Below, piece after piece: positions 42,664-50,283 of a stretch of DNA of 64,000 nucleotides. Numbering within the stretch: position 1 is the first letter of the stretch; every line of letters begins with the position of its first letter. The notes below the pieces were generated by a model, which saw only the letters and a program-made list of their open reading frames with translations, had not been told where the DNA came from and made no database searches. The DNA comes from Sedimenticola sp. (GTDB lineage: Bacteria; Pseudomonadota; Gammaproteobacteria; Chromatiales; Chromatiaceae), in the NCBI GenBank assembly GCA_026985055.1, contig JALSQZ010000008.1:21412-85411 (forward strand), in the 5' to 3' direction. Position numbers and translations under genes: made by a program.

Positions 42664-42832
42664 TTTCACACTCATCTTCGACATCCGTAAGCCATTCATC
42701 CAGATCAATAAGCTGGCATCGCTTGCTGCAAAAGGGGCGCCAGGGCGATTGCTCGTCCCAGGTTACCGGGGCCGCACAGGTAGGACAGATAACGGTCACC
42801 AGGGAATTGCTTGAGGCTTGTTTCATGTTCAT
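42650..42832 (-). CDS. yacG: DNA gyrase inhibitor YacG
   Basis: CPTC...[14 protein letters not shown] zinc motif; downstream of zapD. Confidence 0.88.
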
Positions 42833-43605
42833 ATGGCGCAGGTCTTGAGTTTGAAAGCCACTTCCTGGCTGGTCTGTTCCGGCTGTTCCCAGTCCCTGCT
42901 TTCCATGAAGCGAATGCAGAACCGGTGTTTGTTGCCGCTGATTTCGGCGTAGAGAACGGATTCAGCCGGCAGCATTACCTGAATCAGATCCACACGGCGG
43001 TTCTTGTCCAGGCTTTGTTGGAAAAAACCGTCGCGGGTTGAACGGGAGCGGAATACATTGCTGTTGCGCAGAATGCCCAGTAACAGATCCGTGCTTTCCT
43101 GAACCACGCTGATTTCATGTCGCCAGGCGTCGAGTTGCATGACCCGTTCCGTGTGGGGGAGATTGAGCCAGTGATGCAGCTGTGGCAGGTCAAACTCGAA
43201 GCTGCCTCCAGGAATGACGGAACGCTGCAGGATACTTTTGAGAAATTCGTTGCCGCGCAGACTGCTCCCCAGCTGACTGCTGGTGTTGAACAGGCGTTCG
43301 CTCATGTGCGTGATGTCTTCCAGCACCTGCTGCAGACGCAGTTGATCCACGCCTGGATTGTCACCAATGCGTTCCAGGGAGGTTTTCTGCTGTTCCAGTT
43401 GTTTGATCAGTTCCTGCTTGATATCCGCCCGGCCGAGTATGCTGGTGATATCCAGCAGCGCCTGTATGGCGACCCGGCTCTGCCAGGGGCTGGAAGCGGG
43501 AAGGTGGTACTCGAATTGTTCGAACAGATGAGAAATTCGCAGCAAGGTGCGAGTCCGTTCGTTCAAGGGGTGTTCAAACAAAAGGGAGTTATGCAAGTCA
43601 GGCAT
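42829..43605 (-). CDS. zapD: Cell division protein ZapD
   Basis: [35 protein letters not shown] and [12 protein letters not shown] motifs. Confidence 0.93.
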
Positions 43606-43632: not shown

Positions 43633-43783
43633 GGGTATCCCGAAAAATTCCTTCCATGGAATTTTTCTCGTCGTAAAGAGAAAGTGCGATTTCCTCTTTA
43701 CTCACATTTTCAATTACTTGTGGTGATCGAAAATGGTGGGACTTCCTTGTCCCACTCGGGCATCCCGATTTTTCGAGCTGCCC
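43633..43783 (-). mobile_element. MITE-like repeat family A, copy 2 (151 bp)
   Basis: Reverse-complement homologue of 6915-7065; ends GGGTATCCCGAAAAAT / ATTTTTCGAGCTGCCC; flanks GATT/TATT. Confidence 0.8.
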
Positions 43784-43838
43784 TATTGTCTATCAGATGC
43801 CACCAGGGTTCAAACGGGAATAGTCATTGAGACAGTTA

Positions 43839-44118
43839 TTAACTCGGCAGCAATCTATATCGCGTTCAGCCCGCTTGCCCTTGTTCGCGGCAAGGCATCA
43901 GCCTGCCGTTGTAGTGATTCTACAACAAAGGCTGATAACGCTGTCCGCGGGCAAGGGCAAGCGGGCCTGTCCTTATAGATCAATCGGTTAGGGGTTTCAA
44001 GAAAAGGCCAGCTCCGCGTTCCGGCTCTTGCCAAGGGAACAACCCTTGCCTGCGAGCCGCGCCTTGATCTGACCTTTTCTTGAAGCCCTGAACACGACAT
44101 AGATTGATGCCGGGTTAA
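43839..44118 (-). mobile_element. TA-flanked MITE-like element family C, copy 1 (280 bp)
   Basis: 20-bp TIRs TTAACTCGGCAGCAATCTAT / ATAGATTGATGCCGGGTTAA with TA on both sides; internal hairpins at 43869-43966 and 43992-44088. Confidence 0.78.
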
Positions 44119-44120
44119 TA

Positions 44121-44402
44121 TTAACCCGGCATCAATCTATGCCATCCTCAGGACGTCAGACAAAAGTCAGAACGCGGCGCGCTTCGCAGGCAATGGTGAT
44201 TCCATTGGCAAGAAGCGCAACAAAGTGCTGGCTTTTGTCTGACGTCCCGATCTTTTTTCAATTCAATGGGTTCGGCCACCACGAGCACCCCCGTGGACGT
44301 CGTTGCCGCACCTCGACAGGGGATCACCCTGCCTTCGGCGCGGCGCCTCGCCACGGGTGCGCTCGTGGTGGCTGAGGGTGACATAGATTGGTGCCGGGTT
44401 AA
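44121..44402 (+). mobile_element. TA-flanked MITE-like element family C, copy 2 (282 bp)
   Basis: TIRs TTAACCCGGCATCAATCTAT / ATAGATTGGTGCCGGGTTAA with TA on both sides; internal hairpins at 44151-44247 and 44275-44372; abuts the coaE stop codon. Confidence 0.78.
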
Positions 44403-44404
44403 TA

Positions 44405-45019
44405 TCAATGGCTGCCGGTTCCATCCGAAACAAGGGAAAGATAGTATTTGTGCAGCATTTCCACCTGGGCAAGCAGGGCGTTCATGTCCTTGCTGTTGTC
44501 GATGAGGTCATCTGCCGAAGCCAGTCTTGTTTTCCGGGATGCCTGTGCGGCAAGAATCTGCCTGGCCTGCTTTTCCGATATCTGGTCCCTCAGGCATACC
44601 CGCTGAATCTGAAGCGCTTGTGGAACATCCACCAGCAGCACCCGATCAACCATGCCCTGCATGTCATTTTCCACCAGCAAGGGGATGACTACGAGGACAT
44701 AGGGGGCGTTGTGCAGCTGATCCAGGCGACGCCCGACTTCCTCGCGGATCGCCGGGTGAAGGATGTTTTCCAGGGTGTTTCTGGCTTCAGGAGAAGAAAA
44801 GATGTGCTGCCGCAATTTCTGCCGGTTCAGCCTGCCGTCATGGCGGATGAATTCGGCGCCAAGCCGGTTTTTGATTTGCTTGAGAGCGGGCTGGCCTGGT
44901 TCCACCAGTTCTCTGCTGATAAGGTCGGTGTCGATAACTGGTATTCCAAGACGGGAAAAGTGATCACTGACAGCGGTCTTGCCGCTGGCTATGCCGCCGG
45001 TAAGGCCAATCTTGAGCAT
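44405..45019 (-). CDS. coaE: Dephospho-CoA kinase
   Basis: IGLTGGIASGKT, IDTD, LNRQKLR, ILHPAI and IPLLVE motifs. Confidence 0.96.
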   Translation of the reverse strand: MLKIGLTGGIASGKTAVSDHFSRLGIPVIDTDLISRELVEPGQPALKQIKNRLGAEFIRHDGRLNRQKLRQHIFSSPEARNTLENILHPAIREEVGRRLDQLHNAPYVLVVIPLLVENDMQGMVDRVLLVDVPQALQIQRVCLRDQISEKQARQILAAQASRKTRLASADDLIDNSKDMNALLAQVEMLHKYYLSLVSDGTGSH

Positions 45020-45030
45020 GGGTGGCCTGT

Positions 45031-45909
45031 CTATTGCAGCCCGGCGAACTGCAGGTAGCTGCGGTTGATGTCTTCACCCCAGATCATGGCGATCCAGCCG
45101 GCGGCCGCGAGATAAGGGCCGAAAGGTATGGGGATGCTCTTGTCTCTTCCCAGCGCCAGGATCATGCCCAGTCCGCTGATGGCGCCAACCACGGCAGAGA
45201 TGAGCAGAATCTGTGGCAGGAACTGCCATCCCAGCCAGGCACCAAAGAGTGCAAAAAGCTTGAAGTCGCCATAGCCCATGCCTTCCTTTCCCGTGGCCAG
45301 CAGAAACAGATGGAACAGCAGCCACAGGGACAGGTAGCCGGCGACGGCGCCATAAATGGCTGATTGGATGTCAGCAAACATGCCCTGCAGATTCAGCAGC
45401 AGCCCCAGCCAGATGAGAGGAAGTATGAGTATGTCAGGAAGAATCTGCAGGCGAATATCGATGACGCTCATGGCGAGCAGCGCCCAGGTCAGAAGCAGTG
45501 CCGCCAGCGCCTGCCAGGTAAAGCCGAAATGCCAGACCACTACCAGAGAAAGAATGGCGCTCAGAAGCTCCACCAGCGGATATTGAACCGACAGAGATGT
45601 GCCGCAGGATGAGCACCTGCCCTTTTGCCGCAGCCAGCTGATGAGCGGAATATTCTCCCAGGCGCGGATCCGGTGTCCACAGGACATACAACTGGAGGGC
45701 GGATACATGAGATAGGCGAGGCCAAACCAGCGATTGGGGCGGTATTCCACTTCCTTTCCTGCCAGTTCCGCGCAGGCATCCTTCAGTTCCTGCTCCATCC
45801 GTTGGGGAAGCCGAAATATGATTACATTCAGGAAGCTGCCCACCAGCAGTCCAAGAACAAAGCCCAATGGATAGAGAATTGCCGGCTGGGCAAAAACTTC
45901 TTCCATCAA
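45031..45909 (-). CDS. pilD: Prepilin peptidase / N-methyltransferase PilD
   Basis: GSFLNVII.RLP, S.CMSC, CSSC, catalytic Asp in VID..LQILPD and EGMGYGDFKL. Confidence 0.96.
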   Translation of the reverse strand: MMEEVFAQPAILYPLGFVLGLLVGSFLNVIIFRLPQRMEQELKDACAELAGKEVEYRPNRWFGLAYLMYPPSSCMSCGHRIRAWENIPLISWLRQKGRCSSCGTSLSVQYPLVELLSAILSLVVVWHFGFTWQALAALLLTWALLAMSVIDIRLQILPDILILPLIWLGLLLNLQGMFADIQSAIYGAVAGYLSLWLLFHLFLLATGKEGMGYGDFKLFALFGAWLGWQFLPQILLISAVVGAISGLGMILALGRDKSIPIPFGPYLAAAGWIAMIWGEDINRSYLQFAGLQ

Positions 45910-50077: not shown

Positions 50078-50283
50078 GGAACCTCTGATCAAGTTTGGAT
50101 CAAGCGGATGGTGATGCAATATGTTTCTATACAAGGCGAAAATTGAGTTTAATAGCGAAAGCTATTGCGAAGATTGGCAAATTTTCGATCCTGAACATGC
50201 TGCTGACCGGTATTCCTGCGGGTCGGGAAGTAGCCGCGTGTTTTGGGTGCAAGATGCGAGTTCATGATTTAGTCTGAGGTCTC
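50078..50283 (+). mobile_element. MITE-like repeat family B, copy 1 (206 bp)
   Basis: Imperfect TIRs GGAACCTCTGATCAAG / TTTAGTCTGAGGTCTC. Shares ATACAAGGC, GCTATTGCGAAG and GCAAGATGCGAG.TCATGATTTA with 62607-62889. Confidence 0.7.

What the first reader, a model, noticed from the sequence alone, without database searches (positions are those of the whole stretch)
43839..44402. TA-flanked twin-hairpin elements whose structure is conserved while stem sequence is replaced
Seen: the arrangement is TA-[280 bp]-TA-[282 bp]-TA, each element bounded by the 20-bp TIR TTAACCCGGCATCAATCTAT and in opposite orientations. Each has two long hairpins of matching length: 97 nt (43992-44088 vs 44151-44247) and 98 nt (43869-43966 vs 44275-44372). 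The stems covary strongly. GGGCTTCAAGAAAAGG/CCTTTTCTTGAAACCC becomes GGACGTCAGACAAAAG/CTTTTGTCTGACGTCC. GCAAGGG-TTGTT-CCCTTGGC becomes GCAATGG-TGATT-CCATTGGC. GCCCGCTTGCCCTTG/CAAGGGCAAGCGGGC (15 bp) becomes GCCACCACGAGC/GCTCGTGGTGGC (12 bp). Unpaired motifs are kept (GGCGC..AAC bulges, TGATT/ATCAC loops), and hairpin 2 looks like an inverted hairpin 1. Established: TA duplication is typical of IS630/Tc1-mariner-mobilised MITEs (Correia, ERIC). Inference: this much compensatory change implies selection on folded ssDNA or RNA, for example recognition by a structure-specific recombinase or HUH nuclease, or a functional ncRNA. It may be an undescribed mobile-element system.
Basis: partly seen in the sequence, partly recalled or inferred. 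Interest (0 to 1): 0.8.

Follow-up and report, generated by a model that had tools for sequence, protein, structure and literature searches.

The report
Twin-hairpin mini-transposons with conserved fold
Two gene-less "hitch-hiker" transposons sit side by side between coaE and zapD; they are ordinary in how they move (a borrowed IS630-type transposase, insertion at TA), but each carries two inward-facing copies of a folded ~105-base module that is kept by compensatory mutation and appears, apparently undescribed, in mini-transposons with different ends across many Proteobacteria.

Summary
Window 43839-44118 (280 bp) and 44121-44402 (282 bp) are two abutting MITEs arranged TA-A-TA-B-TA. The genome holds about 30 A-type and 10 B-type copies or fragments.

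How they move:
- Empty sites in relatives carry a single TA, so TA is the target duplication.
- The ends (TTAACCCGGC...) match those of 1089-1101-bp IS630-family insertion sequences (HTH_23+HTH_33+DDE_3 transposase) in Sedimenticola, Thiodiazotropha and other Gammaproteobacteria.
- That transposase is absent from this genome, and so is any HUH (Y1) transposase.

The fold:
- The hairpins are one ~105-nt module type, present twice and facing inward.
- In 24 divergent representatives, 24 of 28 pairs show compensatory change. Pairing is 91.5%, against 61% when shuffled and 39-46% when slid.
- Unpaired motifs (TCAG, CAAGGC, AAC) stay fixed.
- Folding is strand-specific: G·U 351 against A·C 49, and the inward-reading strand is more stable in 21 of 24.

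Distribution:
- The module also rides in MITEs with other ends, including a family that makes 4-bp duplications.
- It occurs in 173 of 301 genomes of the order and 73 of 401 sampled Pseudomonadota.
- Neither Rfam nor my paper searches describe it.

Its function is unknown. The ordinary part is an IS630-type MITE; the interesting part is the conserved structured cargo.

The parts
43837..43838 (.). TA, left copy of the target duplication of element A
   Evidence: Sequence. All 12 full-length 275-282-bp copies in this genome are flanked TA..TA. Empty sites in relatives have one TA.
43839..44118 (+). MITE A, 280 bp (subfamily with end TTAACTCGGCAACAATCTAT). About 30 copies or fragments in the genome, 94-97% alike.
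43839..43869 (+). Left extended terminal inverted repeat of A (about 31 nt, ends in TCAG)
43865..43970 (+). Hairpin module 1 of A, F (inward-reading) strand = + strand
   Evidence: Covariance model R1, 93.1 bits. Inverted repeat I6.
43987..44092 (-). Hairpin module 2 of A, F strand = - strand (inward-facing)
   Evidence: R1, 96.7 bits. Inverted repeat I3.
44088..44118 (-). Right extended terminal inverted repeat of A
44119..44120 (.). TA shared by A and B. One element inserted into the TA flanking the other.
   Evidence: Sequence. The same head-to-head arrangement occurs at C63:4246-4287 and C145:9252-9293.
44121..44402 (-). MITE B, 282 bp (subfamily with end TTAACCCGGCATCAATCTAT), inverted relative to A. 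About 10 copies or fragments, 96-97% alike.
44147..44251 (+). Hairpin module of B, F strand = + strand
   Evidence: R1, 78.4 bits. Inverted repeat I4.
44271..44376 (-). Hairpin module of B, F strand = - strand
   Evidence: R1, 86.6 bits. Inverted repeat I5.
44403..44404 (.). TA, right copy of the target duplication of B. It lies directly after the coaE stop codon (TCA at 44405-44407 on +, i.e. TGA on -).
44405..45019 (-). coaE (dephospho-CoA kinase), the upstream neighbour on the - strand
   Evidence: Pfam CoaE, E = 9.7e-63
42829..43605 (-). zapD, the downstream neighbour on the - strand
   Evidence: Pfam ZapD, E = 6.8e-68

Best explanation
SHOWN. The two elements are non-autonomous DNA transposons (MITEs) of the IS630/Tc1-mariner type.
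- Each consists of a ~31-nt terminal inverted repeat, a ~105-nt hairpin module, a short linker, the same kind of module inverted, and the second inverted repeat.
- They insert at TA and duplicate it. One landed in the TA next to the other.
- Their ends are those of a clade of 1089-1101-bp IS630-family insertion sequences (HTH_23 + HTH_33 + DDE_3 transposase).
- That transposase is missing from this genome and from most genomes of the genus. The copies, 94-97% alike within a subfamily, are therefore leftovers of earlier bursts driven in trans.
- The hairpin module is not derived from the insertion sequence, which has only about 40 bp between its end and the ATG. It is a cargo shared by MITE families with different ends.
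- Its stems change freely but stay paired. Its unpaired motifs (TCAG, CAAGGC, an internal GCNG/CAA loop, AAC) are fixed.
- The strand that reads inward from each end tolerates G·U(T) wobbles about seven times more often than A·C. So it is this strand that has to fold.

INFERRED. My odds for what the fold does, given the shown part:
- About 35%: it acts as RNA. A transcript entering the element from either flank first meets an F-form hairpin, which may insulate, process or stabilise neighbouring messages and make insertions tolerable.
- About 25%: it acts as single-stranded DNA during transposition, replication or gap repair, for example by bringing the two ends of a short stiff element together.
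- About 10%: there is no function, and palindrome homogenisation alone maintains the pairing.
- The rest: something else.

The 33-bp copies consisting of TIRs alone suggest, but do not show, that the hairpins are not required for end recognition.
For: Copies and insertion site:
- About 40 dispersed copies. All 12 full-length 275-282-bp copies are flanked TA..TA.
- Empty sites in G010, G005, G003, G006 and G008 carry a single TA and no TTAA.

Link to an IS630-family transposase:
- IS630-family insertion sequences flanked by TA begin and end TTAACCCGGC.
- One such end, TTAACCTGGCATCAATATAG, matches a MITE end, TTAACCTGGCACCAATATAG, at 19 of 20 positions.
- The transposase has the HTH_23/HTH_33/DDE_3 architecture.
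- Relics of this insertion sequence lie in two genomes of the genus.
- This genome has no cognate transposase, and 17 of 20 genomes of the genus have no DDE_3 domain.

Selected fold:
- On 24 representatives, 24 of 28 pairs show compensatory change. Pairing is 91.5% against 61.0% shuffled and 39-46% slid. Covariation score is 0.84 against 0.25.
- On 147 distinct modules from many taxa, pairing is 93.9% against 61.7% and the score is 0.79 against 0.20.
- G·U 351 against A·C 49.
- The F strand is more stable than its complement in 21 of 24 representatives, by a mean of 4.8 kcal/mol, and in 107 of 141 modules from many taxa (Wilcoxon p = 5e-12).

Shared cargo:
- The same module sits in MITEs ending GTGTACTGCG (CTAG context), GGGTCTGTTG (TA) and GGAACCTCTGATTAAATC (4-bp duplications).
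- The twin inward-facing layout recurs in distant taxa.
- The module is found in 173 of 301 genomes of the order and 73 of 401 of the phylum.
- TIR-only 33-bp copies lie at three loci.
Against: - No transposition has been observed, and the partner transposase is absent here, so mobilisation is inferred from the ends and the target duplication.
- Crude gene calls show no bias in where the copies sit or in how the single-module copies are oriented relative to neighbouring genes. The numbers are small. This does not favour a role in host transcripts.
- The F module is not consistently followed by a U-tract, and in many taxa the twin modules abut, so it is not a general intrinsic terminator.
- The broad alignment A2 was fitted to the model, which leans towards pairing. 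The MAFFT-based A1 gives the same picture.
- The three 33-bp TIR-only copies could have arisen by repeated deletion between GTCGCC repeats rather than by transposition.
Confidence: 0.8

Rival explanations
1. The elements are moved, or were shaped, by a structure-specific enzyme that recognises folded single-stranded DNA: an HUH/Y1 transposase of the IS200/IS605 or RAYT type, or a tyrosine recombinase as for integron attC sites. The hairpins would be its recognition sites.
For: Stems covary while unpaired bases stay fixed, and folding is strand-specific. That is the logic seen in attC sites and IS608 ends (established knowledge, not tested here).
Against: - The elements have classical 31-nt terminal inverted repeats and a TA duplication, which HUH elements lack.
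- Their ends are identical to those of IS630-family insertion sequences.
- The genome has no Y1_Tnp domain.
- The same module rides on elements with several different ends and target duplications.
- The copies are dispersed singly, not in cassette arrays.
Confidence: 0.03
2. The pairing is a by-product with no function. Long palindromes homogenise their own arms by intrastrand template switching or by mismatch repair in extruded hairpins, so both arms change together without any selection on a fold.
For: - The elements are near-palindromic DNA.
- Deletion derivatives that join half of module 1 to half of module 2 show that the arms do recombine.
- No bias in genomic context or orientation was seen.
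Against: - Arm homogenisation acts only on the paired arms. Yet asymmetric unpaired motifs (CAAGGC against AACGC) stay fixed in the same modules whose stems are fully replaced. Over all columns of the broad alignment, unpaired columns are only slightly more informative than paired ones (0.84 against 0.74 bits).
- It predicts equal G·T and A·C counts on the two strands. The observed ratio is 7:1, with the F strand more stable.
- Module length and internal-loop geometry are held across MITE families and across classes of bacteria.
Confidence: 0.1
3. The copies have been domesticated by the host as functional non-coding RNAs or cis-regulatory elements (terminators, small RNAs, riboswitch-like leaders) at the loci where they sit. 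Here that would mean regulating the coaE-zapD operon.
For: - The structure is very stable.
- The pair lies inside a co-directional pilD-coaE-zapD cluster, directly after the coaE stop codon.
- Known MITEs such as Correia and ERIC affect mRNA processing (review PMC10969869).
Against: - Relatives have empty sites at the two orthologous loci examined, so individual insertions are recent and not conserved.
- Copies occur in convergent, divergent and co-directional spacers without preference.
- No Rfam family matches.
- There is no consistent U-tract or promoter.
Confidence: 0.07

Closest known systems
MITEs derived from IS630-family insertion sequences (for example RUP of Streptococcus pneumoniae, attributed to IS630-Spn1, and Nezha of cyanobacteria; examples recalled from knowledge)
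   Same: - Non-coding, 100-300 bp, with terminal inverted repeats matching an IS630-family insertion sequence.
- TA target duplication, tens of dispersed copies, strong predicted fold.
   Different: - The interior is not a deleted remnant of the insertion sequence. It is two inward-facing copies of a separately conserved hairpin module.
- That module is shared with MITEs having other ends and is kept by compensatory change over class-level distances.
Correia repeat-enclosed elements (CREE/NEMIS) of Neisseria
   Same: TA-flanked, TIR-bounded, 100-155 bp, abundant, transcribed into hairpins that RNase III processes (review PMC10969869, and knowledge). This is a possible model for an RNA-level effect.
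   Different: - There is no sequence similarity.
- Correia elements are restricted to Neisseria, are half the size, and fold through pairing of their two TIRs rather than through internal modules.
- No conserved cargo shared with other families is described for them.
REP/REPIN elements mobilised by RAYT (HUH) transposases
   Same: Inverted pairs of short palindromes, structure conserved with variable stems, acting as single strands.
   Different: REPs have no terminal inverted repeats or target duplication and need a RAYT gene. Here TIRs and a TA duplication are present and no Y1 transposase is encoded.
Integron attC sites
   Same: Recognised by structure rather than sequence, strand-specific folding, fixed extrahelical or unpaired bases (knowledge).
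   Different: attC sites lie in cassette arrays beside an integrase gene and carry R''/R' core sites. These elements are dispersed, bounded by TIRs and associated with an IS630-type transposase.

Membership tests
IS630/Tc1-mariner-type MITE | Duplication of a TA target dinucleotide | tested here: met
   Occupied sites C130:7046-7325 and C226:90014-90295 were compared with empty orthologous sites in 4-5 relatives. The empty sites have one TA and no TTAA. The arrangement TA-A-TA-B-TA has three TAs for two elements.
IS630/Tc1-mariner-type MITE | Terminal inverted repeats matching those of an autonomous IS630-family element | tested here: met
   More than 50 TA-flanked insertion sequences of about 1044-1125 bp (most 1089-1101 bp) start and end TTAACCCGGC. 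The best end-to-end match is 19 of 20. The transposase has HTH_23 + HTH_33 + DDE_3.
IS630/Tc1-mariner-type MITE | Non-coding, short, multicopy and dispersed | tested here: met
   Length 280/282 bp. About 40 copies or fragments on many contigs. Variation follows base pairing, not codons. Only short ORFs of 69-86 aa overlap the elements, and their homology was not searched.
IS630/Tc1-mariner-type MITE | Mobilised in trans by the cognate transposase | not testable with these tools
   The cognate transposase is absent from this genome and from 17 of 20 genomes of the genus. A bench assay is needed.
REP/REPIN (RAYT) or IS200/IS605-derived palindromic elements | HUH (Y1) transposase in the genome; no TIRs and no target duplication | tested here: not met
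   PF01797 has no match in this genome. TIRs and a TA duplication are present.
Any Rfam 15 RNA family | Covariance-model match at or near the gathering score | tested here: not met
   Only weak matches to miRNA hairpin models, far below their thresholds. Nothing at gathering score on six 6.6-8-kb loci from Pseudomonas, Stutzerimonas, Acinetobacter and Azorhizophilus that carry the module.
Correia (CREE/NEMIS) / ERIC | Family-specific TIR and consensus sequence | not tested
   No reference sequences were compared. By recall the ends are unrelated. The resemblance is in kind, not membership.
Intrinsic (Rho-independent) terminator | GC-rich stem followed directly by a U-tract | tested here: not met
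   The scan finds no terminator at the ends of the long module stems, only short internal hairpins. Twin modules abut without a linker in many taxa.

The most novel reading that the evidence does not exclude
The ~105-nt hairpin module (TCAG / variable outer stem / CAAGGC / variable 7-8-bp stem / GCNG / short apical hairpin / CAA(G) / AACGC) is an undescribed functional structured nucleic-acid motif, acting as RNA or as single-stranded DNA. It is the real unit of selection. It persists across Pseudomonadota by hopping between transposon vehicles: at least three IS630-type end types and one family with 4-bp duplications. It is usually carried as an inward-facing pair, so that the functional strand is presented whichever way the element is entered. 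It would then be a conserved partner of some widespread host factor, or a general enhancer of MITE survival or transposition.
Probability: 0.35. Interest if true: 0.85.

Novelty: new variant of a known kind. Interest (0 to 1): 0.62.

Why it matters
MITEs are usually treated as decayed insertion sequences whose interiors are junk. Here the interior is the conserved part.
- The fold is kept by compensatory mutation.
- It is specific to one strand.
- It is shared by mini-transposons with unrelated ends, and it is present in over half of the sampled genomes of one order and about a fifth of a phylum-wide sample.

If the module has a function, it defines a new widespread structured RNA or ssDNA class. 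It would also explain why some MITE lineages are so successful. It would be directly testable in cultivable carriers such as Sedimenticola selenatireducens, Stutzerimonas stutzeri, Acinetobacter parvus and Azotobacter chroococcum.

For annotating this genome, it explains many contig breaks and the expanded 800-bp coaE-zapD spacer.

Tried and rejected
- Rfam, with permissive E-value on the locus and gathering score on six distant carrier loci: nothing relevant.
- The only IS630-type contig in this genome (C15, 1153 bp, frameshifted). Its ends do not match the MITE ends, and its protein is only 28% identical to the cognate transposase. It is rejected as the partner.
- A full-length element with these ends in relatives G010, G013 and G009, sought by the spacing of end motifs: none found, only MITEs and deletion derivatives.
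- A piggyBac-like TTAA target reading of the ends: rejected by the empty sites.
- HUH/RAYT transposase: absent.
- An earlier AI note said a similar module sits in rRNA spacers. I searched the 16S genes with 1.5-kb flanks on each side (spacer included) of 12 genomes, 16 loci, with filters off, and found nothing. This genome has no rRNA genes assembled.
- Intrinsic terminator or promoter function: no support.
- Bias in context or orientation relative to genes, using a self-trained codon model checked on pilD, coaE and zapD: none, with small numbers.
- Literature: three full-text searches and two papers read. No description of this module was found.
- LexA-box, IHF-site, sigma-54 and CsrA-site readings of the conserved motifs were considered by eye and did not fit their consensus sequences.

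Full report
**1. What is there**

Window 43837-44404 reads TA, a 280-bp element (A, 43839-44118), TA, a 282-bp element (B, 44121-44402), TA.
- The 20-nt end TTAACCCGGCATCAATCTAT is present at all four ends with 0-2 mismatches. Shuffles expect none.
- Four long imperfect inverted repeats of 22-28-nt arms make up the interiors.
- Each element folds into nearly the same shape: -162.8 and -175.9 kcal/mol, z = -13.4 and -14.1 against dinucleotide shuffles.
- A and B are only 65-70% identical.
- The pair lies on the minus-strand cluster pilD (45031-45909), coaE (44405-45019), zapD (42829-43605). The right-hand TA follows the coaE stop codon directly.

**2. It is a repeat family**

The 3.19-Mb draft genome (233 contigs, 56% GC) holds about 30 A-type and about 10 B-type copies or fragments.
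- Within a subfamily the copies are 94-97% alike.
- All 12 full-length 275-282-bp copies are flanked TA..TA.
- Many contigs end inside a copy.
- Two more head-to-head pairs share one TA (C63, C145).
- One copy is an A/B chimera (C61:78023-78201).

BLAST with A finds copies in 12 of 19 other genomes of the genus and in one genome of another genus. They are 65-75% identical to A yet mostly keep a length of 278-283 bp. Public record titles place these genomes in the Sedimenticolaceae/Chromatiales.

**3. How it moves**

- I joined the flanks of ten occupied sites and searched the genus.
- For two sites, 4-5 relatives have an uninterrupted sequence with a single TA and no TTAA. TA is therefore the target duplication, and TTAA belongs to the element.
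- A relic transposase gene in a genome of the same genus ends ...GCCGGGTTAA|TA.
- Its relatives in public genomes are TA-flanked insertion sequences of 1089-1101 bp that start and end TTAACCCGGC. Hosts include Sedimenticola selenatireducens, the Olavius Gamma-3 symbiont, Candidatus Thiodiazotropha, Microbulbifer and Halioxenophilus.
- One such end matches a MITE end at 19 of 20 positions.
- The intact 341-aa protein has HTH_23, HTH_33 and DDE_3 domains, the IS630-family architecture.
- This genome has no such gene. Its single IS630-like contig (C15) has other ends and 28% identity.
- 17 of 20 genomes of the genus, including a complete one, have no DDE_3 domain at all.
- No Y1/HUH transposase is encoded.

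The elements are therefore IS630-type MITEs, now without their driver.

**4. The hairpins are one module, used twice**

Aligned across subfamilies, hairpin 1 and the reverse complement of hairpin 2 share one plan:
- TCAG;
- an outer stem of about 16-22 bp that differs completely between subfamilies;
- CAAGGC;
- a variable 7-8-bp stem;
- GCNG;
- a 6-7-bp apical hairpin;
- CAA(G);
- the return strand of the 7-8-bp stem;
- (U/C)AACGC;
- the return strand of the outer stem.

Each half of the element is therefore a terminal repeat plus a module reading inward. The insertion sequence has only about 40 bp between its end and the start codon, so the module is not a remnant of it.

**5. Covariation**

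On 24 representatives less than 90% identical to each other (MAFFT alignment A1):
- RNAalifold predicts 28 pairs, of which 24 show changes on both sides.
- 91.5% of cells pair, against 61.0% in shuffles and 39-46% when partners are slid.
- The covariation score is 0.84 against 0.25.

On 147 distinct modules from many taxa, aligned to the covariance model (which leans towards pairing):
- 93.9% of cells pair, against 61.7% in shuffles.
- The score is 0.79 against 0.20.

Invariant positions are almost all unpaired: TCAG, the G and C of CAAGGC, and AAC.

**6. Strand specificity**

Orientation is set by the asymmetric motifs, not by wobble pairs. In that orientation:
- G·U pairs outnumber A·C by 351 to 49.
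- The F strand folds better than its complement in 21 of 24 representatives, by a mean of 4.8 kcal/mol.
- It also folds better in 107 of 141 modules from many taxa (Wilcoxon p = 5e-12).

A palindrome under no strand-specific constraint would show equal numbers. The strand that must fold is the one running 5' to 3' inward from each end.

**7. The module is shared cargo**

The model R1 finds four modules in the window and 77 in the genome.
- About 18 of the genome hits belong to a different MITE family, with ends GGAACCTCTGATTAAATC and a single module.
- That family makes 4-bp duplications (TTAA, CTAA, CTAG, CAAG, TGTA, TAAA, TTTA), so a different kind of transposase moves it.
- A relative genome carries twin modules between GTGTACTGCG ends in a CTAG context.
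- Pseudomonas, Stutzerimonas and Acinetobacter carry them between TA-flanked GGGTCTGTTG ends.
- Copies on plasmids of Pseudomonas, Azotobacter and Halomonas are unannotated.
- The inward-facing plus/minus pair recurs in these taxa, often without a linker.
- R1 hits 173 of 301 genomes (50 of 73 genera) in the order, and 73 of 401 genomes (40 of 212 genera) in a sample of the phylum.

**8. What it is not**

- No Rfam family matches.
- It is not a general intrinsic terminator or a promoter.
- The module is not in rRNA operons in 12 genomes tested.
- Using gene calls from a self-trained codon model, checked on pilD, coaE and zapD, the copies lie in convergent, divergent and co-directional spacers. 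The single-module family shows no orientation bias, with small numbers.
- Deletion derivatives exist: 129-bp elements joining half of module 1 to half of module 2, and 33-bp elements made of the two terminal repeats alone at three loci. The latter suggest the hairpins are not needed for recognition of the ends. Repeated deletion between GTCGCC repeats is an alternative origin.

**9. Reading**

The vehicle is ordinary. The cargo is not explained.
- That both halves present the constrained strand inward fits an RNA acting on transcripts that enter from either flank.
- It equally fits single-stranded DNA exposed from the ends inward, for example strands newly synthesised during gap repair of a donor site.
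- Neutral homogenisation of palindrome arms does not account for the fixed asymmetric loops or the 7:1 wobble asymmetry.

**10. Prior knowledge**

- Three full-text searches and two papers (a 2024 MITE review and a 2024 census preprint) gave no description of a conserved module shared by MITEs with different ends.
- Earlier AI notes from this scan report what appears to be the same phenomenon in other genomes. I used them only as leads.
- I confirmed independently that the cargo is shared across different ends. I did not reproduce the rRNA-spacer claim.

Noticed in passing
window 43633-43783: A third, unrelated ~151-bp repeat lies between zapD and element A. The same sequence family turned up in the flanks of other MITE copies (C45, C165) and at C61, C177, C193, C4 and C130, and in many genomes of the genus. 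The coaE-zapD spacer thus holds three mobile elements in about 800 bp.
   Followed up: partly
window 50078-50283 and 62607-62889: Two degenerate copies of the GGAACCTCTGAT-ended MITE family. Their hairpin module is interrupted or decayed, so the covariance model does not hit them. Eighteen better copies elsewhere in the genome carry one intact module and make 4-bp target duplications.
   Followed up: partly
genome contig C15 (1153 bp), locus L001: A stand-alone contig is an IS630-type element whose transposase is split into 163-aa and 206-aa frames, probably by a programmed frameshift. It is unrelated to the MITE ends.
   Followed up: partly
L108, L109, L110 (G009): Three loci carry a 33-bp TA-flanked element consisting only of the two terminal repeats (TTAACCCGGCGACCAAATATGTCGCCGGGTTAA). 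These are either minimal mobile units or recurrent deletions between GTCGCC repeats.
   Followed up: no
L105, L107 (G010): 129-bp one-hairpin derivatives in which the 5' half of module 1 is joined to the 3' half of module 2, present at two or more loci.
   Followed up: no
genome C61:78023-78201: A 179-bp chimeric copy: the first ~100 bp are B-type and the rest A-type, which suggests recombination between subfamilies.
   Followed up: no
L128 14-283 (G003): A YoeB-like toxin ORF lies directly upstream of the 5'-truncated IS630-family transposase relic. A 21-bp perfect hairpin is inserted in the transposase N-terminal region. The YoeB assignment is by eye from the sequence and was not tested.
   Followed up: no
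genome-wide (G000): No 16S or 23S rRNA signature sequences are found in the assembly, although completeness is given as 99.99%. Together with the many contig ends inside MITEs, this points to a short-read metagenome-assembled genome.
   Followed up: no
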